From a virus (lineage: Duplodnaviria; Heunggongvirae; Uroviricota; Caudoviricetes), in the IMG/VR virus record IMGVR_UViG_3300028898_000252, positions 285,946-349,945 of that record: a stretch of DNA of 64,000 bases; one strand, 5' to 3'. This document shows, in pieces, positions 17,779 to 31,572 of the stretch. A model generated the notes under the pieces. The model saw only the letters and a program-made list of their open reading frames with translations. It had not been told where the DNA came from and searched no databases. The first letter of the stretch is position 1. Every line of letters starts with the position of its first letter. The translations under genes were made by a program, and so were the position numbers.

Positions 17779-17865
17779 TTGAAATTGTTTCTCCCTTCTG
17801 TCTATCTCTTAGCACAATCCACGAAGGTTTATTTACCTTGCGAGAAGTATGCCAAGGGAAAGATA

Positions 17866-17900
17866 GAAAAGAAAACGACCCTGAGTGTATCAGGGTGGTT
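17866..17900 (-). terminator. Intrinsic terminator
   Basis: ACCCTGA-TACAC-TCAGGGT then CGTTTTCTTTT. Confidence 0.6.
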
Positions 17901-17928
17901 CTCTCGAAACGATCAAAGCGAGTTTGAT

Positions 17929-18168
17929 TCAGGGTGCCCGCTCGAAAACGGTTTCATCGTTGCGTCGAATTCGGAACTCTGCTGCGCTCAGGTGAGCGAA
18001 AGAACCACCGCGCCCGAATTCGGGGTGGGTTCCGTTGACGAGTTGTTTTGCGTAGCGAGCATCCTGCGCGTCGCGAATGGTTGCAAAATCCAACCATTTG
18101 CCATCGCGCTTGATTTGCGCAACGTCATATTCCTTGAAGGTGTATTCCGCGGGCTGTGTTTTGTGCAT
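17929..18168 (-). CDS. Hypothetical protein (island cassette)
   Basis: 79 aa, GAGG RBS, follows element 18214. Confidence 0.7.
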   Translation of the reverse strand: MHKTQPAEYTFKEYDVAQIKRDGKWLDFATIRDAQDARYAKQLVNGTHPEFGRGGSFAHLSAAEFRIRRNDETVFERAP

Positions 18169-18249
18169 AGTTTGAATTCCTCTCTCTGTGAATATGGTTT
18201 ACCACAATTCTTGGAGGTTTATTTACCTTTCAAGAAGTATGCCAGTCGA

Positions 18250-18684
18250 TCAGTCTTCGCTGATATCCTCCTCTGCCATATCTTTCAGATATGATTCGAA
18301 CGAGGGAGCATTCCAATCACATCCGTATTCGTAGTCGCCTCCGCCCTCGTAATCTTCTCGGTTTTCTCGCCTTTTGATGCGATCGAGACATTCGTTGAGC
18401 GTATACTTGCGAAACGACCTGTTTTTTTCTTCGGAGTAGTTCCGCTCTTCGATTTCCAGCGAACGAAAATCGAGTTCAGACTCTTCGGTTTTGAGCCACA
18501 TTTCTTGCTCGTCTTCGAGGGTTTCGTCGATTCCCTCGGCGATTGCTTGCTTCTCGGTAACACCTTGCGGGTTGCTGAATCGCAAAGTCTTTTCTCTGCG
18601 GCTGTTACCGAGAATGCGGTTAAGGGTAAACCTATCGTCAATATCGAGACGAGCAACAAAACCGCGGCGATGGTTGGTTTTCAT
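18250..18684 (-). CDS. Hypothetical protein starting MKTNHRRGF
   Basis: ATG 18684 with GGAAGG RBS, follows element 18728. Confidence 0.7.
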   Translation of the reverse strand: MKTNHRRGFVARLDIDDRFTLNRILGNSRREKTLRFSNPQGVTEKQAIAEGIDETLEDEQEMWLKTEESELDFRSLEIEERNYSEEKNRSFRKYTLNECLDRIKRRENREDYEGGGDYEYGCDWNAPSFESYLKDMAEEDISED

Positions 18685-18769
18685 TCTGTTGATCCTTCCG
18701 TGGTTATCTCTTACCACGTTTGGCTCTGAATTATTTACCTTGCAGGGACCGTGCCATCGCGGATTCTGA

Positions 18770-18816
18770 AAATAAAAAATGGGCTACTCGGGTGCTGGTT
18801 AGGCACTCGGTAGCCC
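18770..18816 (-). terminator. Intrinsic terminator
   Basis: GGGCTAC-CGAGTGC..GCACCCGA-GTAGCCC then ATTTTTTATTTT. Confidence 0.75.
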
Positions 18817-19003
18817 GTGAGCGGAAACGGAATCTCCGTTTATTTGTGGATTGAAGGGAGCACGTCGCGCGCTCAACCTCGGTTGAAGGGTAGGAAACAA
18901 CAGCAAGAGCGACGAATAGGGTTGCGATTGTTTAGCTCCTCTCTGTGTTTAGGTTTAGCACACCCTTGAAGGAATTATTTTCCTTTCAAGAGATATGCCA
19001 GTG

Positions 19004-19129
19004 TTAGCGGTTGCCGTTTTTGAGGTTGAGGGTTTCGGTTGCCTTTGCGATCATTCCACCAGCGACGAGCGCGGCGAACATCATCACGAAGGCGAAAGCT
19101 GCCCCGTTGGCGAACGTGTTAGCGATCAT
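19004..19129 (-). CDS. 41-aa single-TM peptide (not in ORF track)
   Basis: MIANTFANGAAFAFVMMFAALVAGGMIAKATETLNLKNGNR; AAGGA upstream. Confidence 0.55.
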   Translation of the reverse strand: MIANTFANGAAFAFVMMFAALVAGGMIAKATETLNLKNGNR

Positions 19130-19259
19130 GGGTTTGTGTGGTTTCCTTTCGCTGGCGACGAATCACCGCTGCAACCTCAACGATGCTGTAGGTTGTGCGC
19201 GCGATGGCGAGAATCAACAGAACGATCATAGAGAAATGGTTGTCGATGGAGGGTTCCAT
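19119..19259 (-). CDS. 46-aa hydrophobic peptide (not in ORF track)
   Basis: MEPSIDNHFSMIVLLILAIARTTYSIVEVAAVIRRQRK...; GAGG RBS after element 19300. Confidence 0.6.
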   Translation of the reverse strand: MEPSIDNHFSMIVLLILAIARTTYSIVEVAAVIRRQRKETTQTHDR

Positions 19260-19338
19260 TTGTTTTCCTCTCTGTGAGTATGTCTTAACATACCATTGAA
19301 GGATTTATTTACCTTTCAAGAGGTGTGCCAAGGTTTCG

Positions 19339-19569
19339 TCACTGGTCGGAAGGAAACCAACCCTTCACAACGGCGTTGTGGGCAATTCCAAGACGAAACA
19401 CCTGGGATCGTACTCGAATGCCGCTCGAAGCATTGAACACCTTGATTGAGGCATTCAGGGCGTTTGGGGCGGCATTCAGAGCAGCGGCGAACGCCTCGTG
19501 TTCGGTTGCTCCGAAACCGCTAGCGCTCAGTCCCGTTTGATTACGGGTCCATCGAAATTTACCTTGCAT
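19339..19569 (-). CDS. Hypothetical protein
   Basis: 76 aa; TAATG coupling with upstream ORF. Confidence 0.6.
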   Translation of the reverse strand: MQGKFRWTRNQTGLSASGFGATEHEAFAAALNAAPNALNASIKVFNASSGIRVRSQVFRLGIAHNAVVKGWFPSDQ

Positions 19570-19781
19570 TAGTTCATCACCCTTTCAGGTGCGGTTGAGG
19601 GATCGTGACCGAGGTTGAAAGCGGAGCGAAACAACTGTGCTTGCTCGCGCGTATCCGTGAAATGATCGAACACGGCCCCAGTCACGTCGGAGCGAAAACG
19701 GACCCTCCACATTTCACGCGGCGGGCGTTGGTTGCGAAGAAAAAACGCCTTCAACTTTTCGAGAAGTAACTTGTCGAGCAT
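19569..19781 (-). CDS. Hypothetical protein
   Basis: 70 aa; GGAGG RBS; follows element 19846. Confidence 0.7.
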   Translation of the reverse strand: MLDKLLLEKLKAFFLRNQRPPREMWRVRFRSDVTGAVFDHFTDTREQAQLFRSAFNLGHDPSTAPERVMN

Positions 19782-19928
19782 GACAACCTCCGTTCTGTTT
19801 GACCGTTTCGAATTCCCTTGTGAGTATGTCTTATCACACTCAGTTAAGGTTTATTTACCTTTCACAAACCATGCCAAGCACAGTTTATGAAAACTTTGTT
19901 TTCAAGACCTATGCCAGACTTTTGCCGC

Positions 19929-20312
19929 TCATGCAAACTTGCATGCCGACAAGGTTTTCATCACGGAATACATCCTGTCGATGACCGCGGGGACCTTTTT
20001 GTCGTTGTCGTGGTAAAACATGTTTGCGGCGAGAATAACATTTCTAATCGCCTTGCGCTTGTTCATTCCGACCGCGATATGCACCGCACCGCCACGAATT
20101 GCGATTGAACACCTCCAGCCGTGATCGCGTACGGCATCGAAAACAACATTGACAGGATTGACGCGATTGTTATTCAGCAGGTCGACCAATTTTTCGACCT
20201 TCGCGCCCCCGCTGTAAACCTCGATAACGGCGGCTTCGAGCAAGGTATTGAACCTTTGCTCTCTTGCTTCGATGGCTCGAAAGAATGCCTTGAATGATTC
20301 GAATTGTTCCAT
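19929..20312 (-). CDS. Hypothetical protein
   Basis: Start reassigned to MEQFESF with AAAGGG RBS. Confidence 0.65.
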   Translation of the reverse strand: MEQFESFKAFFRAIEAREQRFNTLLEAAVIEVYSGGAKVEKLVDLLNNNRVNPVNVVFDAVRDHGWRCSIAIRGGAVHIAVGMNKRKAIRNVILAANMFYHDNDKKVPAVIDRMYSVMKTLSACKFA

Positions 20313-20494
20313 TGTGAAACCCTTTCGTTGGAGAATGACAGCCGCAGAAATAGGATTTGCACCTACAGTTTCCTCTGTTTTGCAGAGGTTTTGGCCACGA
20401 TTCGGCACGGGACCTATTCCCGTTCTGCGGTATAGACTTGTTAACACAACCTCGAAGGTTTTATTTACCTTTCAAGAGGTGTGCCAACGAAGGT

Positions 20495-20707
20495 TTAGTC
20501 GTGATACCAAACATCCTCGCCGTGAATGTTTTTCGACGGAAAAACAACCGTATCCGTGTCCTCGTTGTGCTTCGTGACAGCGAACATCACCTTTCGCTGA
20601 GCGTTGCGCAGCACCTTGCGAGCAAAGCGCTTGAAACCATTGTGAAAGTGGCGATGGTGGGAGTCCTCGCTGCGAGCGGTGAATCCTCGACGGTGGTTCG
20701 TTTTCAA
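20495..20707 (-). CDS. Basic peptide starting MKTNHRRGF
   Basis: 70 aa, TTG start, GGGAG RBS, follows element 20750. Confidence 0.65.
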   Translation of the reverse strand: MKTNHRRGFTARSEDSHHRHFHNGFKRFARKVLRNAQRKVMFAVTKHNEDTDTVVFPSKNIHGEDVWYHD

Positions 20708-20844
20708 TTCCGTTCTCCCTTCTGTCTAGGTCTTAACACACTCTATCGTGAATTATTTTCCTTTCACGAATCGTGCCAAGGTTGACCAAGAGGCTGTCTC
20801 GGTGGGTTGAGGCATTCAGAATTAATTTCAAAATCTGTGCCGCG

Positions 20845-20874
20845 AAAATAAAAAAGCCCCGATTCGCTCGGGGC
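20845..20874 (-). terminator. Intrinsic terminator
   Basis: GCCCCGA-GCGAA-TCGGGGC then TTTTTTATTTT. Confidence 0.8.
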
Positions 20875-20912
20875 GTGGCGGGTTTGGTTATGTATCCAAA
20901 CCAATTGGTTTC

Positions 20913-21287
20913 TCAATCCTCGTTTTCCGACGAGAACGCGATCGAACGAATTCCGATCTCATGGTAGTTTTTCCATGAGAATGTCAGCCGCTTCGAATCG
21001 TCATCGCAGCCTTTCAAAACGACGTGCGTGCAATCCCCCGATTGCGTGACGACCGAAGCGACCTCCCACAATTGCGAGCCGTGCGCTCGCTTTCCCTTCA
21101 CTTCGAGAATGTCACCAACCTTGACGCGCGAAAGGATGATCCACACGGGATCGCGTCGCGTTCGGTCCGAAACTTGAAATTTTCGTTCGGTCAAGTCATC
21201 GTAGAGGCGGCGAGCCTTCGTGTTTTCATTCGCCCACGCGCGAAACGAACCGATGATTGCCGAGAGGATATCCTTGTTGTTGCTCAT
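20913..21287 (-). CDS. Hypothetical protein (possible SH3-like C-terminus)
   Basis: 124 aa; VKVGDILEV. Confidence 0.65.
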   Translation of the reverse strand: MSNNKDILSAIIGSFRAWANENTKARRLYDDLTERKFQVSDRTRRDPVWIILSRVKVGDILEVKGKRAHGSQLWEVASVVTQSGDCTHVVLKGCDDDSKRLTFSWKNYHEIGIRSIAFSSENED

Positions 21288-21335
21288 GTTTCTTTTCTCT
21301 TTTCTTTTCGTTGAAGTTGATTGAAGGGTTGGTTT

Positions 21336-21710
21336 TCAGAGAGAGAGGGCGAAAGCGATATCGAGAGCAACAGGGGTTTTGTTTTCCTCCGTTACTCCGT
21401 TGTACTTGATCGCGTGTTCCGCGAGGTTGTAGTGGTCAATCAATTCGACCTCGCAAGGTAGGGGAGTGTTGCAGGCGAGCCGCGTAATCGGAGGCATTTT
21501 TTTGTCTCCGAAAAGTTTTACCAACAAAAACTCTGTTCCGTATTGACCAGTGGAGGCGGAACTTGCGGTCAATTGGTAGACCGCAGAAACCTCTTTGCGG
21601 CCTTTCCGAAATGACAGCAAGAAAAACCTTGCAACCTTGACAAACACCGTAATCGAACAACCGAGTGTTTCGGTGTTGATTCGATCACCAACCTTGAAAA
21701 GATGGTTCAT
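21336..21710 (-). CDS. Hypothetical protein
   Basis: Start reassigned to MNHLFKVGD with AAGGGA RBS. Confidence 0.65.
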   Translation of the reverse strand: MNHLFKVGDRINTETLGCSITVFVKVARFFLLSFRKGRKEVSAVYQLTASSASTGQYGTEFLLVKLFGDKKMPPITRLACNTPLPCEVELIDHYNLAEHAIKYNGVTEENKTPVALDIAFALSL

Positions 21711-21866
21711 TCGTTTTTTCCCTTGTTGCTTGACGAAAACCTTGTCGGCGACTGGCTTATCGACAATAATTTTCTTGGGGTTGCGAGACAGGGTGATTCC
21801 TGGCCAGTTTCTATCTCTTATCACAGCTTTCAGCATTGAATTTTCCTTTCAAGCGCTATGCCAAGA

Positions 21867-22049
21867 TTACCTTTTCCGTTGTTTGATTTTCGAACCAGAG
21901 GGCACCACGAGAAACCATTCGAACCTGTTGACAATTGCATTCCAAACCTTGTATCTCCGAATCACTCTCGTGTAGAGAGCACCTTGACGCAGGGTTTCGA
22001 GGTATGAGTCGAACGGACCCAGGTGGTTTTCTGAATAACAGTCGCCCAT
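21867..22049 (-). CDS. Hypothetical protein
   Basis: 60 aa; AAGGTGA RBS; follows element 22101. Confidence 0.65.
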   Translation of the reverse strand: MGDCYSENHLGPFDSYLETLRQGALYTRVIRRYKVWNAIVNRFEWFLVVPSGSKIKQRKR

Positions 22050-22136
22050 TCGTTCACCTTCCCTTGCTGGCGTGTCTACCTCATATCACGATTGATTCTG
22101 TTTTATTTTCCTTGCAGGGATCATGCCAGCAGTGGA

Positions 22137-22355
22137 CTACTTCGAAACCTCAACTCCAATAATCAAAACCATCGGAGGCTCGCCTACAGAAGTCTCGAAA
22201 CCAGAAACTTTCGTCTGGAAAACTTCATCCTTCTCTGGATTATCCATGAGAGCTTCATTCAGTCGGAGGATCAACCTTTGCGCTTCATCACGCGAAAGGC
22301 CGATAACCAAACGATTTTTGAAAATCTCGTCTGCGGTTTTTTCCCAGTGCGCCAT
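22137..22355 (-). CDS. Hypothetical protein
   Basis: MAHWEK start, AAGGA RBS; follows element 22399. Confidence 0.65.
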   Translation of the reverse strand: MAHWEKTADEIFKNRLVIGLSRDEAQRLILRLNEALMDNPEKDEVFQTKVSGFETSVGEPPMVLIIGVEVSK

Positions 22356-22490
22356 GATCTTTTCCTTTCCGTGGTTATGATCTAACACATTCAGCTCTGA
22401 ATTATTTACCTTGCAGGGATCATGCCAACCACGGGAGATTGAGAATTATTTTCAAATTGCTGCGGCACAAAAAATGCAGGGCCAAAAACG

Positions 22491-22530
22491 ATAAAAGGGC
22501 AACCCGCTTGTTAAAGCGAAGTTGCCCCTT
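22491..22530 (-). terminator. Hairpin/terminator after the tRNA-ncRNA operon
   Basis: GGGCAAC-TTCGCTT..AAGCGG-GTTGCCC then TTTTAT. Confidence 0.65.
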
Positions 22531-22569
22531 TGGGTTTATTTACTTTGCAAACCGTGTGCCAACGTTTAG

Positions 22570-22644
22570 CGTCTCTGATAGGACTTGAACCTATGACCTA
22601 CCGCTTAGAAGGCGGTCGCTACTATCCAACTGAGCTACAGAGAC
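22570..22644 (-). tRNA. tRNA-Arg(UCU)
   Basis: GTCTCTG/CAGAGAC acceptor, TAGCTCAGTTGGATAG D arm, ACCGC-CTTCTAA-GCGGT, GGTTCAAGTCC; CCA not encoded. Confidence 0.92.
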
Positions 22645-22649
22645 AAAGC

Positions 22650-22732
22650 GTCTCGTAACGTTACTGTGCGCCGCTTACACTACGGTTTTGAGGCCGCGGA
22701 GAGTCGAACTCCGTCTGCAACGTTTCCGAGAC
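22650..22732 (-). ncRNA. Circularly permuted tRNA-like RNA (YrlA/Y-RNA-like)
   Basis: Order stem - T arm (CGGAG-TTCGACT-CTCCG) - closed acceptor hairpin - TA - D arm (GTGT-AAGCGGC-GCAC) - stem. Confidence 0.7.
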
Positions 22733-22919
22733 TGAAACAGTCTACAGGAGCACTGTTTCGATGTGCAGTCGATACGCAATCCGTCTCGTAACGTCATCGC
22801 GACGTTGGATTGTCCACTATTGGCAATCAACCTTTCGAGGTTGACTCTCGCTCTCGCCGCGAGAAGGCTAGTGGTGCTGAGAGCATATAATACCGACATA
22901 TCCCCTCGGTTAACGGGTT

Positions 22920-22988
22920 GACTGAGCGGTTTAACTGTTTAACCTAACAGGTTACCCTGTGCAGGATTCGCACCCGCATATCTCAGTC
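22920..22988 (-). ncRNA. Circularly permuted tRNA-like RNA (YrlA/Y-RNA-like)
   Basis: GACTGAG-ATAT-GCGGG TGCGAAT CCTGC-ACAGG GTAA CCTGT-TA-GGTT AAACAGTTA AACC-G-CTCAGTC. Confidence 0.72.
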
Positions 22989-23197
22989 GGTGTGATGGTG
23001 GTTTGTATTGTTTCACTAGCATTCAGTAACCATCGGTACCGAATGCCAGCGGCCACGATTTATTTAACCCAACACCGAGCATTGTGGCTTGTTTGGTATT
23101 GGACCACGGAATTATTCTCCGTGGATTTGCTTTCCTTAAATGGTGGAAAGCACGACAGCGTTTACGACTCCATACTATATGTCGCCTCTAGCATGAA

Positions 23198-23262
23198 TGG
23201 TGCTCTCATATGGACTCGAACCAATGCCTAGCAGCGCGGTTAAGCGCTCTAGGTATGAGAAC
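23198..23262 (-). ncRNA. D-armless tRNA-like RNA with encoded ACCA
   Basis: GTTCTCAT/ATGAGAGC-ACCA, CCTAG-AGCGC-TTAACC-GCGCT-G-CTAGG, TGG-TTCGAGT-CCA. Confidence 0.7.
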
Positions 23263-23387
23263 ATGTTTTATGTTAAGGAATCTATCGTTTTGACGTTGTT
23301 GCCCCGATCGCCTCGCTCTCTCTGTCTACATTCTAGCGCGACCGAGCAAGGTTTATTTACCTTTCAAGTATCGTGCCAGGGAAAAGG

Positions 23388-23516
23388 GTACCGCCGCGGG
23401 AATCGAACCCGCTTTAGACGTTCTAGCCAACGTCTAAATCTCCAAGGTAGAACCCCATAGTTTTATCGGTGCTTGACTAGAGCGCCCGCTATGTTGTCTA
23501 ACTTTAGGTAGCGGTA
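23388..23516 (-). ncRNA. 129-nt tRNA-like RNA (acceptor + T arm + two long hairpins)
   Basis: TACCGCT/GGCGGTA, GCGGG-TTCGATT-CCCGC, TTTAGACGTT/AACGTCTAAA. Confidence 0.65.
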
Positions 23517-23519
23517 TAG

Positions 23520-23602
23520 TGCCAGCAACGGGACTTGAACCCGTATGCCCTTGCGGACGGCGGATTTTGAATCCGCTGCGTATTCCATTCCGCCACGCTG
23601 GC
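23520..23602 (-). tRNA. tRNA-Leu(CAA)
   Basis: GCCAGCG/TGCTGGC-A, GCGGA-TTCAAAA-TCCGC, long variable arm GTCC-GCAA-GGGC, GGTTCAAGTCC. Confidence 0.93.
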
Positions 23603-23949
23603 ATTTGTTCTGCAATCTCGTTTGCAGAGGACGATACCGAGACACATTCTAATATGCGGCTCGATATTAACACGCTGGGATGACACAATGATCATCCGTG
23701 TGGTACAGCTTAGTTTGATATGTGTACCTAGTTCACAGCCCGCGGTTTTCATTGGCTGCAAAACAAGTTGTGCCAGTCACTTAGCCCGTGTTTGCAGGAT
23801 ACGCGCACGCCGACTAGCTTACGCTCGCGTTTCCGACGTATGGGATATATTACCGTTCACTCGCTTTCCTTTTCGTTGCTGCCCGCCCCATGAATCTCTC
23901 TTACCACACCCGAGCAAGGTTTATTTCCCTTGCAAGCGCTATGCCAGGG

Positions 23950-24189
23950 TCAGAGCGCGACCACCGCGAGGGTTTCGCGACCGTTTTCCCACGGGCAGAG
24001 CCACGCTTTCGCGTAGCCGTTGGGTGCTTGCACGATCACGGGATTACGGGGCGACGCCCGTTTCGCGCGGCAAGCGCGGACGATTTTGTCCACCCCAGAA
24101 TCGATAGAATAGTGAGTCACGAATGTAGCTGCCGTTTCGTTGAACTCGAACACCACTGCTTTCGAATCGTTCACTTTTGCATCCTCCAT
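23950..24189 (-). CDS. Hypothetical protein
   Basis: 79 aa between elements 24221 and 23916. Confidence 0.6.
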   Translation of the reverse strand: MEDAKVNDSKAVVFEFNETAATFVTHYSIDSGVDKIVRACRAKRASPRNPVIVQAPNGYAKAWLCPWENGRETLAVVAL

Positions 24190-24254
24190 CCCCCATAATC
24201 TTATGTTAGTACAACCGAGCAGGGTTTATTTACCTTGCACAAGCCATGCCAGAG

Positions 24255-24617
24255 TTAGACCTTGGCGGAATCCTCCGCTCGACGAATAACCCACCATTCG
24301 GTTCCCGCGCCGTCGCGGTCGATTTCACCCACAAGGATGAATTCATTGCTGAGCATATCCATAAACACGCCCTCCCATGCCCCGCGGGTTGTTCGAACGG
24401 ACACACCGAGGATTCTGGAAAACTCAGCCGCAGCCGCAGATTTTCTGACTACGGACGAAAGATTTGTCTTCCGAACGTCGATCTTTCCGCCGCCGCTCAA
24501 TTCGAGCTCGAAACCCTCTTGGGTTTGCTCGATCGCAGTCACGGGAATGAATTCGAGATTCAACCGTTGACGAGCGACGATATTCAAATCGAGACCATCC
24601 GACACAATGCAGTCCAT
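24255..24617 (-). CDS. Hypothetical protein
   Basis: 120 aa, AAGGG RBS, follows element 24669. Confidence 0.7.
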   Translation of the reverse strand: MDCIVSDGLDLNIVARQRLNLEFIPVTAIEQTQEGFELELSGGGKIDVRKTNLSSVVRKSAAAAEFSRILGVSVRTTRGAWEGVFMDMLSNEFILVGEIDRDGAGTEWWVIRRAEDSAKV

Positions 24618-24710
24618 TGTTTGAAACCCTTTCTTCGTTGGTGTGTTCTCTGTATAGCAGACCCTAGCAAGGTTTATTTACCTTGCAATCGGTATGCCAA
24701 GGATGATTAG

Positions 24711-24781
24711 TAGGTCCAGAAGGAATCGAACCTTCGTTAACTGGTTAAAAGCCAGCTACTCTACCATTGAGTTATGGACCC
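24711..24781 (-). tRNA. tRNA-Lys(UUU)
   Basis: GGGTCCA/TGGACCT-A, GCTGG-CTTTTAA-CCAGT, GAAGG-TTCGATT-CCTTC. Confidence 0.93.
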
Positions 24782-25130
24782 TTAGAGCGCCGCTGTTTAC
24801 CAACGATTCCCCGTATGCGGGGCAACCTCGGGACAGCGGGCGGTTTTGCACCATTCTTTTATTCGTTTTAGGCCGAATCACACCCGTTAGGTAGCTATCG
24901 GCCTATCGTTTACGACGATACATCAGCGTTTCCTCTTCGCTATATTATTAGAACCTACGCATGCGCGCGGTAGGCTTATGGGTTCGAGGTAGTGAATGCG
25001 GAATGACCCGCGCCCGTATCGTGTTGGCAGCGTGCGGTTTCGCTCGGTATCCGCTGCTAGTTTTACCGATCGACTAGCAACCGCTCAGTGGAGCGGCTGA
25101 CAAGGTGTGTGTAGCACGACTCGGCAGGGT

Positions 25131-25469
25131 TTATTTACCTTGCACCGTCTGTGCCAGCGGGACGCCGCCCGACCACGGGGCATCGTCGATCATTTCGAAA
25201 ATGGTTTGAATTTCCTCGACTGAAAGAGTGGTGTCGTGATACCACTCCGTCAACCTTCGGTCGAAAGCGTCGGCAAGGTCGCGGGTTTCAGCGAATTCGA
25301 ATTCGACCTCTTCGAACATCGAATTGTAAAACCTCGGAGGTTGCTCGCCATTTGCCGCGCGGTGTTCGATGATCGCCTGCTCGCATTCTCCCACGAATTC
25401 GGCGAGTTGTTCTCGCGAATAACCGCGGAGTTTCAGCGTTTGCAATTCTGAGAGATTCTTCGTCGACAT
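25131..25469 (-). CDS. Hypothetical acidic protein; stop codon supplied by the next element
   Basis: MSTKNL start; ends LAQTVQGK-TAA, the translation of element 25126-25156. Confidence 0.65.
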   Translation of the reverse strand: MSTKNLSELQTLKLRGYSREQLAEFVGECEQAIIEHRAANGEQPPRFYNSMFEEVEFEFAETRDLADAFDRRLTEWYHDTTLSVEEIQTIFEMIDDAPWSGGVPLAQTVQGK

Positions 25470-25546
25470 TTTCTTTCGTTGCTCCTCTCTGTGGGTATGT
25501 CTTACCACACCCTTGAAGGAATTATTTACCTTGCAAGCGGTGTGCC

Positions 25547-25579
25547 AAAAAAAATAGGCTTGGAATAGATCCGAAGCCT
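25547..25579 (-). terminator. Intrinsic terminator
   Basis: AGGCTT..AAGCCT then ATTTTTTTT. Confidence 0.65.
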
Positions 25580-25769
25580 CTCACCATTCGTTATATCGCC
25601 TTCAACCGCAAGTTAACTTAATAACTCGCTGAATGGCCGCACTCCCAGGCATCGCGCTATGGACTAGCCTTATGGTTGCGCTTTGTTATGGCCGCTTGCA
25701 CGGTTTGGTTGAAGCAATGCCGTTATCCAACGGCGGTATTGGCTTGACAGAGAATCCTGTTCTCTGTCA
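25580..25769 (-). ncRNA. Candidate structured ncRNA downstream of tRNA-Ile
   Basis: No minus-strand ORF; long-range pairing TTGCTTCAACC/GGTTGAAGGCGA plus two hairpins. Confidence 0.45.
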
Positions 25770-25846
25770 TGGTAGGCGTAAATGGACTCGAACCATTGAC
25801 CCCACGGTTATAAGCCGTGTGCTCTAACCGACTGAGCTATACGCCC
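25770..25846 (-). tRNA. tRNA-Ile(UAU)
   Basis: GGGCGTA/TACGCCT-ACCA, CACGG-CTTATAA-CCGTG, AATGG-TTCGAGT-CCATT. Confidence 0.9.
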
Positions 25847-26037
25847 AACGAATGCGGCCTCGCCTTATTCAGCGCCCGCGGTGAATGCTAACCAGCTTGT
25901 CACGGCCAGTGCATTATTTTACCTGCTTTCCGTATCGTTGCGGGTTGAGGTTTTGAGGCAACCTTGCTCGTTGCCCCGTGAGTATGTCTTAGCACGACTC
26001 GGCAGGGTTTATTTGCCTTGCACCGTTCGTGCCAGGG

Positions 26038-26346
26038 TTACGCCAGCTTCGACCACGCCAGCGCGAACAAACGCACGGCGAAAGCCAGGGCGAAAACCGC
26101 AGCGCTCACCCTTGCAATCCCCAGCGCGTTTTTTGACGTTCCGTAACCGTACTCGGACGCAAGAAAACTGTTTGTCAGCCTCTCAGCGATCATGGAAACC
26201 ACGAAAAGCGATCCAAACAACAACAGGTGTTGTCCTGCGGAGAGCGAGAGAAACATCCCGAAAAACGTTCCGATCGCGCCCGAAGCGATGGCGAGCACAA
26301 GCAACACAGCCGCCGCGACTGCGGCGAAAACCTTACCAAAGGTCAA
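26038..26346 (-). CDS. Small multi-pass membrane protein
   Basis: About 3 hydrophobic segments; TTG start just after the upstream stop (start uncertain). Confidence 0.6.
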   Translation of the reverse strand: MTFGKVFAAVAAAVLLVLAIASGAIGTFFGMFLSLSAGQHLLLFGSLFVVSMIAERLTNSFLASEYGYGTSKNALGIARVSAAVFALAFAVRLFALAWSKLA

Positions 26347-26348
26347 GG

Positions 26349-26729
26349 TTACGACCTTCGCGAGTGTGACGCGCGCTGGAGAATCGGAAGACCAAGAACA
26401 CCACTCGGTCCAACCTTTGCAAACGCATCGGTTTGCTCGTTGCCGCGTTCGCCAGGGACGAAAAGCGTCACCTCGGCATAGCGGTTGCTGTGCCCCGCGC
26501 AGCACTTGGTTTCACTCGAAACCGTTGCGCGCCAGTCAGAAGCGGAAAAAAACTTTTCCGTTTCCTTTCCCGCAGCGTCGTGTCGGATCACTTCGACCGC
26601 GTAGCGCTCCAATTGGAGCCGTTCGCGGAGTTCATCGGCGTGCATTTCCGCCGCTGTGCGTGTGTCGAGCTCCATTCCTTCATCGAAGGAAACATCGCCA
26701 CTGTCTGAACCATTCACTTCGATCGTCAT
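26349..26729 (-). CDS. Hypothetical protein
   Basis: 126 aa, GGAGGT RBS, follows element 26797. Confidence 0.7.
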   Translation of the reverse strand: MTIEVNGSDSGDVSFDEGMELDTRTAAEMHADELRERLQLERYAVEVIRHDAAGKETEKFFSASDWRATVSSETKCCAGHSNRYAEVTLFVPGERGNEQTDAFAKVGPSGVLGLPILQRASHSRRS

Positions 26730-26831
26730 TGCCTACCTCCATGTAGGGTTGCTAGAGGTTATCTCCAGCAACAACTTTTGAATAACACAACCCTCGAAGG
26801 TTTATTTACCTTGCAGGGATCATGCCATTCT

Positions 26832-26892
26832 TGGAGGGCTTGGGAGAATCAAACTCCCCGCAAAGTTTTTGCTTTGCGAACCATTAAGCCCT
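26832..26892 (-). ncRNA. Minimal tRNA-like RNA (acceptor + T arm + one hairpin, TCCA end)
   Basis: GGGCTT/AAGCCC-TCCA, GGGAG-TTTGATT-CTCCC, GCAAAG-CAAAAA-CTTTGC. Confidence 0.55.
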
Positions 26893-26897
26893 TGCGG

Positions 26898-27380
26898 TCA
26901 CTCCGCTAGTGCCGCCTGAATCTCGGAAAGTTTCTTCTCGAAGGTGAAACGAGTTTCGAAACGCTCGCACACTTCGCGCAATTCCTCGAAACCACTCGCG
27001 ATTTGTTCGAGCGAATCGGGGTCAACCTCGTTGGGCGCGGTGCGGTCGACCAGCTTCGCATACTCGGTCAACTCGATTCCGAATTGAGCGCCGCGCCAAT
27101 CTCCGTTAGCGTCGCGGTAGTTGAGCACACGCTTTTCGAGCGCGTACATGATCGCGCCGTCCACATCACCCGCCTTTTGCGCGGTGCGCAGCTCGACCAG
27201 CTTCCGATACGACGCGCGCAGGTTTTCCACACCCGCGACGATCATATCAAACTTCTCGTCGACATTCGCGTTTCGAAACGCCGCCAAGTTTTCGAGCGGC
27301 TTGTGCTTGCACGCGTCGAACGAGCGCGTGGCTTCGAGAAGAGCCGCCTTATCTGCAACAACAACAACGTTCGTTCCCAT
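26898..27380 (-). CDS. Hypothetical helical protein
   Basis: MGTNVV start; GC3-rich codons; follows element 27467. Confidence 0.7.
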   Translation of the reverse strand: MGTNVVVVADKAALLEATRSFDACKHKPLENLAAFRNANVDEKFDMIVAGVENLRASYRKLVELRTAQKAGDVDGAIMYALEKRVLNYRDANGDWRGAQFGIELTEYAKLVDRTAPNEVDPDSLEQIASGFEELREVCERFETRFTFEKKLSEIQAALAE

Positions 27381-27612
27381 TTTTTTCTTTTGCTCCAATG
27401 TTTGAAAAACCGTTCACTTGCTGTGTGAGCACCGTTGCTCACACTCTCTACTTAGCACAACTCGACAAGGTTTATTTACCTTGCAGGGTTCATGCCAAGC
27501 GTGGCACTTCCGCCGAGGGTTGCACTCGGCATAGCTATTGCTTGTTAGCTTTAGCTATCGTGTCCTGGTGACACCGAAAGTGTTTTGTTCTGCCCCTTTC
27601 GGGGCGAGGGTT

Positions 27613-28236
27613 TCAACCCTCGGCGGTTTCGTCGTCGGTCGCAGCGTCGAGCGCTTCGAGCGCGGGCGAATTGCTCAGGTCGGTTGCAGCCGCGCCAGCA
27701 AACCGCGACGGAGGCGCGGAAAGCGCGACGACACGCGCCGTGCGCGCAGGCTTCGCGGGCTTGGGAGCCTCGGGAGCCTTGGGTTTGATTCCGAGCATCG
27801 CAGCGACCGAGGTTTGCGGCGCGTTGGGATTGATTCGCGCGATTCCCGCGCACTCCATTGCAGCGCGGAAGGTTTCGATCAGTGACAGCGCCTCGATCGC
27901 GCAACCCGCGCTATCGCGCGAGTGGAGCACGAAAACGTTGTCGCGACCGATGACCTCACTGCCGTACACGACCTCGCCGCGAACGATGCGAAGCAACAGC
28001 GTCGAGCCCGCCGTGTCCGAGTTTGGCCCGCCGCGCGCGGCGCGCACGCCTTCGAGCAGCGCGAGCGCCGAGCCGCCTTCGTCATCGGTCAAGCGGAACA
28101 TCACGGGCTCTTGTGGCTCGATCCACAGATCAGACTTCGACGCGTCGCCGCCCTCGCCGCACTGCTCGCGAACGTGCGCAACGAGCGCCGCGAGAACCAT
28201 TCCAGCGACAACCGAACGAACAGAATTCTTGCTCAT
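27613..28236 (-). CDS. Hypothetical protein with A/P-rich disordered C-terminus
   Basis: MSKNSV start; follows element 28332. Confidence 0.7.
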   Translation of the reverse strand: MSKNSVRSVVAGMVLAALVAHVREQCGEGGDASKSDLWIEPQEPVMFRLTDDEGGSALALLEGVRAARGGPNSDTAGSTLLLRIVRGEVVYGSEVIGRDNVFVLHSRDSAGCAIEALSLIETFRAAMECAGIARINPNAPQTSVAAMLGIKPKAPEAPKPAKPARTARVVALSAPPSRFAGAAATDLSNSPALEALDAATDDETAEG

Positions 28237-28331
28237 GTTTTTTTCTCTCTTTTCTTTCGTTTTGTGAACTCGCGAGCACCGCAACCGTGCGGTGCATCAT
28301 CTCTTGTGAATCTCTCTTAGCACGACTCGGC

Positions 28332-28362
28332 AAGGTTTATTTACCTTGCACCGTCTGTGCCA
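28332..28362 (-). promoter_or_regulatory. Representative sigma54-type -24/-12 promoter
   Basis: TGGCACAGACGGTGCAAGGTAAATAAACCTT; GG-N10-GC; upstream of the ORF starting at 28236. Confidence 0.75.
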
Positions 28363-28532
28363 ACCTAACAACCATCGAAACTCACGTTCGCAGGTTAGGT
28401 GGGATGGTACGAATGTTGTTTGTTCGTGCCGTCCCGTCTACTCTGCAACCGATACCCTGTCATGTGCTCTGTCTAGCACACTCTCGGAAGGTTTATTTAC
28501 CTTTCAAGTATCGTGCCAGGACAGTTTCAGGC

Positions 28533-29054
28533 TCAGTCGTCATCGGCAGCATCGAAAAACTTGCCGATCGCGAGGAATTCACCGCGAGTGCAAGCGGCGT
28601 GCCACTCAGGATTCGAGCCCGTCCCGTTTGGAATCGGGCTGAAATTCAATTTCTGTACCATCGTGCGGCGTGCTTTGAATTCGGCGAATCCTGGGAATTC
28701 AACCGAAGCAAGCACCGCGCCGTTGTTTTTCGACCAGTCGTAAAAGTACCGTTGTTTTCCGACGGCACCGTCGTCGGCCAGTGGGGCAACAACGAGACAG
28801 CTTGTTCCTCGCGCCCCGCGTGAGGAATGATTCCCCAGCAAAATGAATCGCCGCTTGTTGATTCGCACAGTTGAATACTTTGGCGCTGCTTTTGCAGCAA
28901 GCACCGTATCCCGCTGAAACTCGCTGAATTCATCGTAGTCAGGCGAATCCCGCTTGATTCGCCCCTGGCGAGCACCTTCGCCTGCGGTACAGTCAAGGTC
29001 GAGCCTTTCAGGCTCGACAACATTGTCATTGTCATTGTCGTTTTCGTTTGCCAC
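28533..29054 (-). CDS. Hypothetical protein
   Basis: GTG start with GAGGAG RBS; NDNDND microrepeat; follows element 29098. Confidence 0.7.
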   Translation of the reverse strand: MANENDNDNDNVVEPERLDLDCTAGEGARQGRIKRDSPDYDEFSEFQRDTVLAAKAAPKYSTVRINKRRFILLGNHSSRGARGTSCLVVAPLADDGAVGKQRYFYDWSKNNGAVLASVEFPGFAEFKARRTMVQKLNFSPIPNGTGSNPEWHAACTRGEFLAIGKFFDAADDD

Positions 29055-29296
29055 TCGCTGTGCTCCTCTCTGTGAATCTCTCTTAGCACGACCGACCAAG
29101 GTTTATTTACCTTGCAGGGTTTGTGCCAACAACCTTGGTCGTTGGAGTTTCGAGCGAAACGCGGCGATCGTCCGTCCCGCCCTGTGTTCTCTGTCTAGCA
29201 CAACCCAAGGTGCTTTATTTACCTTGCAAGCATCATACCAGGGTTGGGCGTTTGGCGCGGTGCGAGCCTCTATCGACCGCGCGTACACGCGTGCGT

Positions 29297-29370
29297 AGCA
29301 TAAACCATGCCAGGTAAGACTACCTAAAAAAACCGTTGGCATGATACTTGCAAGTGGCATGGTTTATGCC
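29297..29370. promoter_or_regulatory. Divergent cluster of three GG-N10-GC boxes at the right island edge
   Basis: Minus 29297-29312; plus 29337-29352 and 29355-29370; perfect 15-bp inverted repeat 29298-29312/29355-29369. Confidence 0.75.
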
Positions 29371-29485
29371 TTCGCGGGGCAACCCTCAACCGTTACCATA
29401 TATGGCAGTATGAAACACCTAAACATTTAGTGAAATGAAATTTAATGAAACTAGGTATGAATTTTATTTGTACTAAGGTTTAGAG

Positions 29486-29959
29486 TTAAACTTTGTATTT
29501 TATAAAAAGAGTTTCGAGTTTTGTTTTAAGTTCTGGATAATGATAAAGGAAACTTTTATTCTTTTTTGGATCAAGGAGTCTTTCGTAAATTTGTTTGTAT
29601 GAGTTTCTCTCAAGCCACGAGAGATAAGCTGAAATAAACTTATCATCTTCGAGATAGTCAAACAAAGTGACTTCAACCATTTCAAAAAATGTTTCTTTGT
29701 CGAGTTTAATTGTTTTGGAGCATATTAGAGCATAATATGCACAAAGTTTTTTGATAAGAAACTCATCATTTTCAAAATCAAGAACTTGTGGTTTTTGGGC
29801 TTTGGGAGAGGAAGTATTCCAGTTTTGGGAAACAATTATTGTCGATTGTGATTCATGTGCGGTAATTGTGTTATAAGAAGGGTCAAACAAAATGGCACGG
29901 TAATCACAACCTGTAAATGTTTTAACAAAGGTTTTGAGTTCTTTGTTTTCAAGTTTCAT
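29486..29959 (-). CDS. Hypothetical protein
   Basis: MKLENK start with AAGGAGG RBS. Confidence 0.75.
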   Translation of the reverse strand: MKLENKELKTFVKTFTGCDYRAILFDPSYNTITAHESQSTIIVSQNWNTSSPKAQKPQVLDFENDEFLIKKLCAYYALICSKTIKLDKETFFEMVEVTLFDYLEDDKFISAYLSWLERNSYKQIYERLLDPKKNKSFLYHYPELKTKLETLFIKYKV

Positions 29960-30121
29960 TGTTTTGTTGCCTCCTTTTTTTGATTGTTTTGTTTCAACCC
30001 AAACTCTTATTGTTTTGGGTTGATTTATCTTAGCCGCAAACCTTATAAAAGGTTTGGGATTTAAGCTTTGAATTAATATGATAAACATTTAGTATTTTGA
30101 CCCTCCCCTCCCCTTAAAAGA

Positions 30122-31300
30122 TTAATTCTTTTTAGAGTTAAGCTGCGAAAGGTTTTCTTCAAGGGCTTGGTCAATAACTTGCAAAGTATCTCTAAACTGT
30201 TGAGTAAAACTATCAGTAAGGGCTTTGAATTCTTTCTTGAGATTCACATTATCGTTTTCGGCGGAATACCATTCGATTCTGAATCTATCAATAACTTCTG
30301 AATACTGGGAAAGGAATTCAAGTCCTTCGCAGATTGATTTATCAAACACTTCAATTGGATAGTTTCTCAGGTCGAGGCCGTTTGCCTTGAACAAGTTTTC
30401 GTAGGCAAACTTTGCAAGAAACTTTCCAATGAAGCCGAATTGATCTGTAACCTCTTCTTCGTTGTTTATTTCAATAGAAGGAATATAAACAGTCCATTTA
30501 TCAAGTGGAGAAATAAGAGTTTTGTTATCGTCTCTTGCCGATGATCCTGCGTCGGCGAATCGCATAATAACAAATGGTCCATATTGACCATCCCCAGAAT
30601 AAACTTGATAACCAACCATTCCTTTCGGAAAAGGATTCTTTCCTCGCTTTGCCGCGACAGAATAGTTGATTCCAAGGTTCATGTTTCGATAATCAGACCT
30701 TCTTTTCGATTCTTTCCATTCTGCCTTTTTAATATTGTTTTCAATTTCGATTTGCTGAAGGTGTTTGTTGTACAGATTCATAATCTCTTCATCGGCATCA
30801 ACTTCAACAAAAAGACCATCCTTTTTAAAGGATTTTCCTTTGTAGAAAACAGGAGGCAAATAAACATTACTTGTTTGAATGTGTTCAGCTGCAAACTTTT
30901 TTTCTTCTTTAAGATAGTAGGTGATAACAAGACTGTCATTATTCAAACCATCATAGTAATATGAATTCATTTCAACATTCACAATTGGATTTGATGGGTC
31001 GATAATATATTTCTCTGTGACTGAAATCCAGCCATATTTGTTGACGATTGGTTCTTGTGCCTGAAACATTTCAAGATACTTTTTTTGGATTGCCTCGAAT
31101 TCTTCTTTCTCGTGCAAGTAATACACAGGGGAATTTGAACATGTTTCATAGTTTTTCAATTCCTCTTCGGTCATTTCGTTTCTGCGGCGAACTCTCTTTT
31201 CGACAAGTTCGCTGTAATTCAGTTTTTTTCTCAATTCCTCGTGAGCTTTGTATGCAGGGTTTTCATCCGTTCGGAACACACTCAACGACTTTGCGACCAT
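30122..31300 (-). CDS. Hypothetical protein under the outlying element 31407
   Basis: 392 aa, GGGAG RBS. Confidence 0.8.
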   Translation of the reverse strand: MVAKSLSVFRTDENPAYKAHEELRKKLNYSELVEKRVRRRNEMTEEELKNYETCSNSPVYYLHEKEEFEAIQKKYLEMFQAQEPIVNKYGWISVTEKYIIDPSNPIVNVEMNSYYYDGLNNDSLVITYYLKEEKKFAAEHIQTSNVYLPPVFYKGKSFKKDGLFVEVDADEEIMNLYNKHLQQIEIENNIKKAEWKESKRRSDYRNMNLGINYSVAAKRGKNPFPKGMVGYQVYSGDGQYGPFVIMRFADAGSSARDDNKTLISPLDKWTVYIPSIEINNEEEVTDQFGFIGKFLAKFAYENLFKANGLDLRNYPIEVFDKSICEGLEFLSQYSEVIDRFRIEWYSAENDNVNLKKEFKALTDSFTQQFRDTLQVIDQALEENLSQLNSKKN

Positions 31301-31572
31301 GTTTTTATTTCTCCCGAGTGAATTGGTTTTTGTTGCCCCGATTATCGCTGCGGTGAGCCTCTATCACTCGCGCGATCACGAGCACACGCATAGCACAATC
31401 CCCCGCGGATTATTTACCTTGCAACGACCGTGCCAGCTACCGAGGGCAAGAGGATTCGACCCCGCAAAGTTTGCAGGTTTCGCGAGCCTTTCAGTGTAAC
31501 GGTTACCCGAAACAAACGATCAAACAAGAAAAACAAAAGTGTAATGAAATTAAATCATATTAATTTCAATAG

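What the first reader, a model, noticed from the sequence alone, without database searches (positions are those of the whole stretch)
23388..23516. 129-nt tRNA-like RNA with tmRNA-like top half but no tag ORF
Seen: begins 3 nt after tRNA-Leu; 7-bp acceptor TACCGCT/GGCGGTA, perfect T arm, a 10-bp arm TTTAGACGTT/AACGTCTAAA in the variable position and a long interrupted hairpin (CATAG/CTATG, CGG..CCG) replacing the D and anticodon arms. It is far shorter than tmRNA and has no G3-U70 pair. Inference: an undescribed tRNA-derived ncRNA or an insertion-expanded tRNA.
Basis: partly seen in the sequence, partly recalled or inferred. Interest (0 to 1): 0.7.

Follow-up and report, generated by a model that had tools for sequence, protein, structure and literature searches.

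The report
Phage tRNA-like RNA with kissing loops
This is a real gene for a small folded RNA in a giant phage: it keeps the top half of a tRNA but cannot read codons, and it has the same design as phage T4's 'species 1' RNA, whose job has been unknown for 50 years.

Summary
On the minus strand, 23516-23388 folds into a 7-bp acceptor stem, a long interrupted arm, a 10-bp arm with a 6-nt loop, and a canonical T arm. It starts 3 nt after tRNA-Leu(CAA). ARAGORN and Rfam call nothing there.

Five homologues from metagenome and Logan contigs keep every helix: 14 of 49 pairs show compensatory double changes.

Two 6-nt loops, CUAGUC on the long arm and GGCUAG on the 10-bp arm, are invariant and fully complementary.

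The element is not without precedent. T4 rnaC (species 1 RNA, function unknown) has the same four-helix plan in the same tRNA-operon position, including two complementary 6-nt loops. Those loops co-vary among T4-like phages: UUGACG/CGUCAA, UUGAUG/CAUCAA, UUGGCG/CGCCAA.

Covariance models built from either family do not detect the other. I therefore claim a shared design, not shown homology.

It is not a tmRNA (no tag ORF, no SmpB gene in the phage), not tRNA-Sec, and not a decaying tRNA.

Most likely it is cut out of the tRNA-Leu transcript like a tRNA and persists as a non-decoding tRNA mimic locked by a loop-loop contact. Its target is unknown.

This scan has noted similar RNA C-like RNAs in other phages. 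I reached the T4 link independently, before reading those notes.

The parts
23388..23516 (-). Whole tRNA-like RNA, 129 nt including discriminator C at 23388. The next two bases (23387-23386) are CC, a partial CCA.
   Evidence: Sequence; fold; own-family covariance model R2 scores 110 bits and finds a single copy in the 391-kb genome.
23510..23516 (-). P1 5' strand (UACCGCU), the acceptor-like stem.
   Evidence: Pairs with 23389-23395. Positions 2 and 6 change on both sides in homologues: A-U / G.U / G-C and C-G / U-A.
23389..23395 (-). P1 3' strand (GGCGGUA).
   Evidence: No alternative internal 5' partner is conserved in the diverged homologues.
23439..23508 (-). P2, the long interrupted arm that takes the place of the D and anticodon arms (sub-helices P2a-P2d).
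   Evidence: eight pairs in P2c and P2d show compensatory changes between variants. The P2d register is hand-fitted.
23475..23480 (-). L2, apical loop CUAGUC of the long arm.
   Evidence: Invariant in all 5 homologues while its stem changes. Complementary 6/6 to L3. Chance of such a match is 0.003.
23413..23438 (-). P3, a 10-bp arm in the variable-arm position, with the 6-nt loop L3 GGCUAG at 23423-23428.
   Evidence: four pairs change on both sides; the loop is invariant.
23396..23412 (-). P4, the T arm GCGGG-UUCGAUU-CCCGC.
   Evidence: The stem co-varies (G-C to A-U). The loop is a canonical T loop in the window and in L021/L022, but is GGCGGU(U/A) in L008/L023/L024.
23520..23602 (-). tRNA-Leu(CAA), upstream in the same unit.
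   Evidence: ARAGORN and Rfam, 54 bits. In L021/L022 its encoded CCA abuts the first base of the element.
23349..23378 (-). Next promoter-like repeat (TGGCAC-N5-TTGA-AGGTAAATAA). It starts 10 nt after the element, so the element closes its unit.
23917..23946 (-). Promoter-like repeat heading the unit: about 290 nt of leader without a real ORF, then tRNA-Leu, then the element.
   Evidence: reading of the sequence (only a 13-codon frame follows the ATG).

Best explanation
This is a gene for a stable, non-decoding tRNA-like RNA of the same design as phage T4 RNA C (species 1 RNA).

Shown:
- A 7-bp acceptor stem and a 5-bp T stem form a tRNA-type minihelix.
- The D and anticodon arms are replaced by one long arm (P2). 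A 9-10-bp arm (P3) sits where a class II variable arm would.
- All helices are kept by compensatory mutation.
- The 6-nt loops of P2 and P3 are invariant and fully complementary.

Inferred:
- The RNA is co-transcribed with tRNA-Leu.
- RNase P cutting at its 5' end frees it and, in the same cut, makes the 3' end of tRNA-Leu.
- Its 3' N-CC tail is trimmed and completed like a tRNA's.
- The loop-loop pairing locks the body into a compact particle.
- The particle offers the tRNA top half without an anticodon, so it acts as a mimic or decoy for some factor that binds the acceptor/T part of tRNA. That target is unknown.
For: Anatomy.

No tRNA, tmRNA or Rfam call.

Homologues: L021/L022 are about 96% identical to the window element. 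L008/L023/L024 are much diverged, at 140 nt.

Pair table over the five sequences: 49 pairs, of which 27 are invariant, 14 have compensatory double changes, 3 have wobble changes only, and 5 have a mismatch in some sequence. L2 and L3 are invariant and 6/6 complementary; the chance of that is 0.0032.

T4 rnaC:
- It follows tRNA-Arg and rnaD at the end of the T4 tRNA operon.
- It has a 7-bp closing stem, a long arm ending in loop UUGACG, a 10-bp arm with loop CGUCAA placed 1 nt before a canonical T arm, and then the 3' acceptor strand.

On nine T4-like members, 91% of cells are paired and 26 pairs change on both sides. The loop-loop helix is 100% paired, with two compensatory pairs. Four further members also keep L2 equal to the reverse complement of L3.

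Both RNAs give the same weak Rfam tRNA-Sec match, 19.5 and 17.5 bits.

In L021/L022 the element starts directly after the encoded CCA of tRNA-Leu, as in tRNA dimers matured by RNase P.

The T4 operon is transcribed as one precursor that ends after species I RNA (PMC2330249). RNA C accumulates late in infection and its role is unknown (PMC9697503, PMC3014915).
Against: - There are no expression data for this uncultured phage. Transcription, processing and stability are all inferred.
- Covariance models do not link the two families. The T4 model R1 gives only 18.9 bits on the P3 + T-arm part, with filters off, and nothing with default filters. Our model R2 gives 8-14 bits on rnaC and scores tRNA-Ser higher at 20.8 bits. 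The shared design may therefore be convergence.
- The three diverged homologues have lost the T-loop sequence (GGCGGUU/A). Recognition that depends on the T loop cannot be essential in them.
- The loops of the window family never vary, so their pairing is supported here only by complementarity, not by covariation.
- My pair table is hand-aligned, P2d especially, and so leans towards the structure.
- Simple helix-length bookkeeping does not obviously let the two loops meet within one molecule.
Confidence: 0.65

Rival explanations
1. It is a purely cis-acting processing and 3'-end module. A tRNA-shaped punctuation mark lets RNase P define the 3' end of tRNA-Leu (or of the endonuclease mRNA in relatives) and protects the transcript end. 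It has no role of its own after release.
For: It always sits at the 3' end of its unit, 10 nt before the next promoter-like repeat. In L021/L022 it abuts the CCA of tRNA-Leu. In L008/L023/L024 it follows a homing-endonuclease ORF instead, and there the T loop is not kept.
Against: A punctuation mark needs only the acceptor/T minihelix. Here about 95 nt of extra body are held by compensatory changes, and two invariant complementary loops are kept. The T4 counterpart accumulates as a stable late RNA (PMC9697503). No intrinsic terminator is found on this strand.
Confidence: 0.15
2. It is a self-assembling RNA. Phi29 packaging RNA does this with its two loops.
For: Complementarity and covariation cannot tell cis pairing from trans pairing. 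In the window RNA, P2, P3 and P4 join with no linker. P2 (about 19 bp plus loops) and P3 (10 bp) are of unequal length, so a cis contact is not obviously easy (my inference). Phage pRNAs multimerise by intermolecular loop-loop kissing (PMC4201828).
Against: There is no evidence of multimers for T4 RNA C in the papers I could read. There is no structural model. Bent arms with internal loops, such as the A-rich 6-nt bulge at 23466-23461, could allow a cis contact.
Confidence: 0.12
3. It is a degenerate or insertion-expanded tRNA, that is, a pseudogene or a tRNA carrying an insertion that must be removed.
For: It has a canonical acceptor and T arm, lies next to a tRNA, and sits in an island with several odd tRNA-like stretches.
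Against: ARAGORN with introns allowed finds nothing. No D arm and no 7-nt anticodon loop with U33 can be drawn. The supposed insert is conserved by 8 or more compensatory pairs and by invariant loops across contigs that are 78-89% identical in their flanks. Independent T4-like phages have the same plan.
Confidence: 0.04
4. It is a miniature tmRNA-like ribosome-rescue RNA.
For: It has an acceptor/T minihelix plus a long helix, as in the tRNA-like domain of tmRNA.
Against: ARAGORN calls no tmRNA and Rfam gives no tmRNA match. There is no tag reading frame and no G3.U70 pair. The phage has no SmpB gene.
Confidence: 0.02

Closest known systems
Phage T4 RNA C (rnaC, species 1 RNA; NC_000866 70908-71046) and its homologues in Tevenvirinae
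   Same: - Size is similar: 129-140 nt against 137-140 nt.
- Position is the same: directly after or between tRNA genes in a tRNA operon that also holds a homing endonuclease.
- The helix plan is the same: a 7-bp acceptor-like closing stem; one long interrupted arm ending in a 6-nt loop; a 9-10-bp arm with a 6-nt loop placed 0-1 nt before a canonical T arm; and the two 6-nt loops fully complementary.
- The 3' tail is a near-CCA in both.
- Both give the same weak Rfam tRNA-Sec match.

   Different: - No sequence or covariance-model similarity is detectable.
- T4 has a roughly 10-nt A/U-rich linker before P3 and a tandem U.U in the acceptor stem. The window RNA has no linkers and a fully paired stem.
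- The loop sequences are unrelated.
- The host phage is an unrelated 391-kb uncultured phage.
- Some relatives of the window RNA have lost the T-loop sequence.
Class II tRNAs (Leu, Ser, Tyr) and tRNA-Sec
   Same: Acceptor stem, T arm, and a long extra arm between the anticodon-arm position and the T arm. The own-family model R2 scores phage tRNA-Ser at 20.8 bits. Rfam tRNA-Sec gives 19.5 bits.
   Different: There is no D arm and no anticodon loop. The extra arm is 10 bp with a 6-nt loop. The scores are far below the family cut-offs.
tRNA-like domain of tmRNA (SsrA)
   Same: An acceptor/T minihelix joined to a long helix that replaces the anticodon arm.
   Different: It is 129 nt against about 360 nt. 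It has no tag ORF, no pseudoknot ring, no G3.U70 pair and no SmpB partner in the phage.
Phi29-type packaging RNA (pRNA)
   Same: A phage RNA of about 120 nt with two loops complementary to each other (PMC4201828).
   Different: pRNA has no tRNA-like end. Its loops pair in trans, by experiment. No multimer is known here, and there is no link to a packaging motor.
YrlA / bacterial Y RNAs
   Same: A non-decoding RNA with a tRNA-like module, also found in phages.
   Different: In YrlA the RNA ends form the Ro-binding stem, and the tRNA-like part is internal and permuted. Here the ends form the acceptor stem. Rfam gives no match in the E-value scan.

Membership tests
T4 RNA C (species 1 RNA) type | 7-bp acceptor-like stem formed by the 5' and 3' ends | tested here: met
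   UACCGCU/GGCGGUA, with two compensatory positions. In T4 it is CGAUUCG/CGUUUCG, fully paired in phage TG1.
T4 RNA C (species 1 RNA) type | 9-10-bp arm with a 6-nt loop, placed 0-1 nt before a T arm that runs straight into the 3' acceptor strand | tested here: met
   The T-loop sequence is canonical in the window and L021/L022 but not in L008/L023/L024.
T4 RNA C (species 1 RNA) type | Long arm whose 6-nt apical loop is the complement of the 6-nt loop of the shorter arm | tested here: met
   CUAGUC/GGCUAG, 6/6 with one G.U. T4-likes show UUGACG/CGUCAA, UUGAUG/CAUCAA and UUGGCG/CGCCAA.
T4 RNA C (species 1 RNA) type | Lies inside a phage tRNA operon, a few nt from a tRNA gene | tested here: met
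   It lies 3 nt after tRNA-Leu. In T4-likes it lies 1-8 nt from tRNAs.
T4 RNA C (species 1 RNA) type | Detectable homology by sequence or covariance model | tested here: not met
   R1 finds nothing with filters on and a partial 18.9 bits with filters off. R2 gives 8-14 bits on rnaC, below tRNA-Ser. BLAST finds only the tRNA-Leu part.
T4 RNA C (species 1 RNA) type | Accumulates as a stable RNA cut from the tRNA precursor | not testable with these tools
   Known for T4 (PMC2330249, PMC9697503). There are no expression data for this uncultured phage.
tRNA (RF00005) | Cloverleaf with a D arm and a 7-nt anticodon loop | tested here: not met
   No ARAGORN call, even with introns allowed, and no Rfam tRNA match over the element.
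tRNA-Sec (RF01852) | Score at or above the gathering cut-off of 47 bits | tested here: not met
   19.5 bits over the 3' 85 nt only.
tmRNA | Tag reading frame, G3.U70 pair, SmpB partner | tested here: not met
   No ARAGORN tmRNA call. Pair 3-70 is C-G. No SmpB gene in the phage.

The most novel reading that the evidence does not exclude
RNA C-type RNAs are a widespread but uncatalogued class of phage RNA. These would display several tRNA top halves and would bind or sequester a host factor that handles tRNA, or a host defence factor that targets it. If so, this phage and T4 reached, or kept, the same device.
Probability: 0.12. Interest if true: 0.85.

Novelty: new variant of a known kind. Interest (0 to 1): 0.6.

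Why it matters
T4 RNA C has been known since the 1970s and still has no function (PMC3014915, PMC9697503, PMC12685909). It is not in Rfam.

An unrelated giant phage carries an RNA with the same detailed plan, including a loop-loop contact that co-varies in the T4 family. This shows that the design itself is under selection, not only the T4 sequence.

It also gives concrete handles for experiments in T4, which is tractable: the two loops, the acceptor/T minihelix, and the dispensable T loop. It argues for a structure-based search model so that these genes stop being annotated as 'hypothetical protein' in phage genomes.

Tried and rejected
Searches that found nothing useful:
- Exact-pattern scans of IMG/VR for the T arm plus acceptor, for the promoter repeat and for the tRNA-Leu 3' half found nothing.
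- A protein-anchored scan with the 392-aa neighbour found nothing.
- A two-loop pattern gave only chance hits in IMG/VR and in genomes.
- BLAST against GenBank phages matched only tRNAs.
- The zinc-ribbon ORF upstream in L008 had no homologues in the protein collection.

What worked: a metagenome scan with the promoter repeat, and homologues of the upstream 79-aa ORF traced to Logan contigs.

Other negative results:
- The T4 model R1 found no real rnaC in KVP40, Aeh1, RB49, RB43 or Acinetobacter phage 133.
- A loose home-made descriptor gave many false hits in the AT-rich genome. With a T loop, a full acceptor stem and a perfect P3 all required, only this element remains.

Readings rejected:
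Its short acceptor pairing is not conserved in the diverged homologues, whereas the 7-bp stem with the far 5' strand co-varies.
- Reading CUA in either loop as an amber anticodon is rejected. The loops have 6 nt, and U33 is lacking in one of them.
- An intrinsic-terminator role is rejected: no terminator-like site lies on this strand.

Literature searches for a described function or a described class found only statements that RNA C is of unknown function.

Full report
**Setting**

The window lies in a 390,884-bp virus record with direct terminal repeats. The genome is about 32% G+C. One 12-kb island, window 17.8-29.4 kb, is about 50% G+C; nothing else like it exists in the genome.

The island carries about 25 co-oriented repeats of the form TGGCA-N6-TTGCAAGGTAAATAA on the minus strand. 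Each heads a small ORF or an RNA.

The island also holds four tRNA genes (Arg-UCU, Leu-CAA, Lys-UUU, Ile-UAU). Two of them duplicate tRNAs found in the phage's main tRNA cluster at genome 12-37 kb.

**The observation**

- a 7-bp acceptor stem, UACCGCU/GGCGGUA;
- a single A;
- a long interrupted arm (P2, 23508-23439);
- a 10-bp arm with the loop GGCUAG (P3, 23438-23413);
- joined directly to it, a T arm GCGGG-UUCGAUU-CCCGC (P4, 23412-23396);
- the 3' acceptor strand, discriminator C, then CC.

tRNA-Leu ends 3 nt upstream. The minimum-free-energy fold gives this four-helix plan, with z = -3.3.

ARAGORN, with or without introns, calls nothing here, and Rfam has no family for it. The best Rfam match is tRNA-Sec at 19.5 bits against a cut-off of 47.

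The unit reads: promoter-like repeat at 23946, about 290 nt of leader with only a 13-codon frame, tRNA-Leu, the element, and then 10 nt later the next promoter-like repeat. No terminator-like site lies on this strand.

**Relatives**

GenBank phages and IMG/VR gave nothing beyond tRNA matches. Two routes did find relatives:
- A metagenome scan with the promoter repeat found contigs 88-95% identical to parts of the island. One of them, L008, holds a diverged copy of the element.
- Homologues of the 79-aa ORF upstream of the unit led to Logan contigs.

The homologues fall into two groups:
- L021 and L022 have tRNA-Leu plus an element about 96% identical to the window's. Here the encoded CCA of tRNA-Leu abuts the first base of the element.
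- L023 and L024 (with L008) have a 140-nt form that is strongly diverged.

**Structure is under selection**

I made a helix-by-helix table over the five distinct sequences. Of 49 pairs:
- 27 are invariant;
- 14 have compensatory double changes;
- 3 have wobble changes only;
- 5 have a mismatch in some sequence.

The compensatory changes fall in all helices: acceptor positions 2 and 6, the T stem, four pairs in P3, and eight in P2. The table is hand-aligned, P2d most of all, so it leans towards the structure. The P1, P2c, P3 and P4 registers are unambiguous.

The alternative shorter reading, a 70-nt D-armless RNA at 23456-23386, is not supported. Its acceptor pairing is absent from the diverged forms.

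The T-loop sequence is canonical in the window and in L021/L022. It is GGCGGU(U/A) in the diverged group, while the stem is kept.

**The two loops**

The apical loop of P2 (CUAGUC, 23480-23475) and the loop of P3 (GGCUAG, 23428-23423) are invariant in all five sequences, while the stems beneath them change. They are complementary at all six positions, one of them a G.U pair. Two random 6-mers from this island match that way with probability 0.003.

**Comparison with T4**

I recalled that T4 has two stable RNAs in its tRNA cluster, so I fetched that region. rnaC (species 1 RNA, 139 nt) follows tRNA-Arg and rnaD at the end of the operon. The operon also holds the homing endonuclease segB.

The rnaC fold shows the same plan as the window element: a 7-bp closing stem, a long interrupted arm, a 10-bp arm with a 6-nt loop placed 1 nt before a canonical T arm, and then the 3' acceptor strand. 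Rfam gives it the same weak tRNA-Sec match, 17.5 bits.

Its two loops, UUGACG and CGUCAA, are perfect complements.

On nine diverse T4-like members (alignment A2):
- 91% of cells are paired;
- 26 pairs change on both sides;
- no shuffle of 500 reaches the observed values, and the slid controls fall to 36-49% paired.

The loop-loop helix is 100% paired and has two compensatory pairs:
- Yersinia phage TG1 has UUGAUG/CAUCAA.
- Klebsiella phages R3_1 and EI have UUGGCG/CGCCAA.

Four further members keep L2 equal to the reverse complement of L3. So the loop-loop contact is supported by covariation in the T4 family, and by complementarity with wholly different letters in the window family.

**Homology or design?**

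The covariance models do not link the two families.
- The T4-family model R1 finds nothing in the window with default filters. With filters off it aligns only P3 plus the T arm, at 18.9 bits.
- The window-family model R2 gives rnaC only 8-14 bits and scores a phage tRNA-Ser higher, at 20.8 bits.
- R2 finds one copy in the phage's own genome, at 110 bits.
- R1 finds no real rnaC in KVP40, Aeh1, RB49, RB43 or Acinetobacter phage 133.

I therefore file the element as sharing the design of RNA C. Common descent is not shown. The cross-hits to class II tRNAs suggest that both derive from tRNAs with a long variable arm.

**How it most likely works**

Shown: the fold, its conservation, the complementary loops, and the position at the 3' end of a tRNA unit.

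Inferred:
- Co-transcription with tRNA-Leu.
- RNase P cleavage at the 5' end, which would also make the 3' end of tRNA-Leu. The direct CCA/element junction in L021/L022 fits this.
- Trimming and completion of the conserved N-CC tail by host enzymes. The phage has no CCA-adding enzyme, no SmpB and no RtcB.
- A compact body locked by the loop contact.

Without an anticodon loop it cannot decode. The best guess is a mimic of the tRNA top half that engages some tRNA-binding factor. This guess is weak.

For T4, published work says only three things: the operon is one precursor ending after species I RNA (PMC2330249); RNA C is a late RNA seen on Northern blots (PMC9697503); and its role is unknown (PMC3014915, PMC12685909).

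**Cis or trans**

Covariation cannot say whether the loops pair within one molecule or between molecules. In the window RNA, P2, P3 and P4 meet without linkers, and the two arms differ in length. By my own helix counting a cis contact is not obviously easy, although the A-rich bulge in P2 could act as a hinge. Trans pairing, as in phi29 pRNA (PMC4201828), remains open and is my 'novel case'.

**Homing endonuclease in relatives**

In L008, L023 and L024 a roughly 400-nt AT-rich insert sits exactly between tRNA-Leu and the element. The insert is flanked by CACTA on both sides.

Its two reading frames match PHROG HNH-endonuclease families at E = 3e-5 to 4e-6, so it is a frameshifted or decayed HNH homing endonuclease gene.

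L008 is a mosaic. The insert and the first 90 nt of the element are 100% identical to L024, the rest of the element is about 95% identical, and the sequence further downstream is about 100% identical to the window. The endonuclease and the diverged allele of the element therefore move together, as segB does with the T4 tRNA region (PMC2330249).

**Earlier notes of this scan**

Notes on this window describe the promoter island and several other tRNA-like RNAs. One of them read the 3' 70 nt of my element as a separate D-armless RNA. My data contradict that reading.

After I had reached the T4 link, a word search showed that other agents have reported RNA C-like kissing-loop RNAs in other phages. 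I did not test those reports. They agree with mine, but they are not independent evidence.

**Verdict**

This is a real, conserved, non-decoding tRNA-like RNA gene. It is a new variant of the kind represented by T4 RNA C, and it is uncatalogued in Rfam. Its function is unknown.

Noticed in passing
L024:1350-1757 (also L023:2143-2550 and L008:1672-1881, minus strand): Relatives carry an AT-rich insert of about 400 nt between tRNA-Leu and the element, flanked by CACTA. Two different frames match PHROG HNH-endonuclease families, so it looks like a frameshifted or decayed homing endonuclease gene.
   Followed up: partly
L008 compared with L024 and window 22950-23530: L008 is a mosaic. The endonuclease insert and the first 90 nt of the element are 100% identical to L024 (the rest of the element about 95%), while from about 250 nt downstream it is about 100% identical to the window. 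This suggests co-conversion or cassette exchange around the element.
   Followed up: partly
window 17800-31435, minus strand: About 25 co-oriented repeats TGGCA-N6-TTGCAAGGTAAATAA, with sigma-54-like -24/-12 spacing, each head a small ORF or RNA. They occur only in the single GC-rich island of the genome. The same repeats occur in the metagenome contigs L008-L015.
   Followed up: partly
window 23198-23262 and 26832-26892, minus strand: Two shorter tRNA-like RNAs share the 3' module of this element: an arm with a 6-nt loop abutting a T arm, closed by an acceptor stem with an encoded CCA. They lack the long arm. The loop UUAACC of the first has its complement GGUUAA twice in the same unit (near 23069 and 22944), which is not significant by itself.
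   Followed up: partly
own genome 61455-61527, plus strand (outside the window): ARAGORN calls a tRNA with anticodon CUA (labelled Pyl), that is, an amber suppressor. The phage may read TAG as a sense codon in some genes.
   Followed up: no
window 22569-25846 compared with own genome 12-37 kb: The island's tRNA-Ile(UAU) and tRNA-Lys(UUU) duplicate tRNAs of the phage's main cluster. Together with the composition jump, this suggests the island was acquired from another phage.
   Followed up: no
L046 (Klebsiella phage EI, MN106245) 46-183; also L033, L032, L044: In several GenBank phage records the rnaC homologue is annotated as a 'hypothetical protein' CDS, with a ribosome-binding site, rather than as an RNA gene.
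   Followed up: no
window 23603-23890, minus strand: The roughly 290-nt leader between the promoter-like repeat and tRNA-Leu has only a 13-codon frame. It may hold further structured RNA.
   Followed up: no
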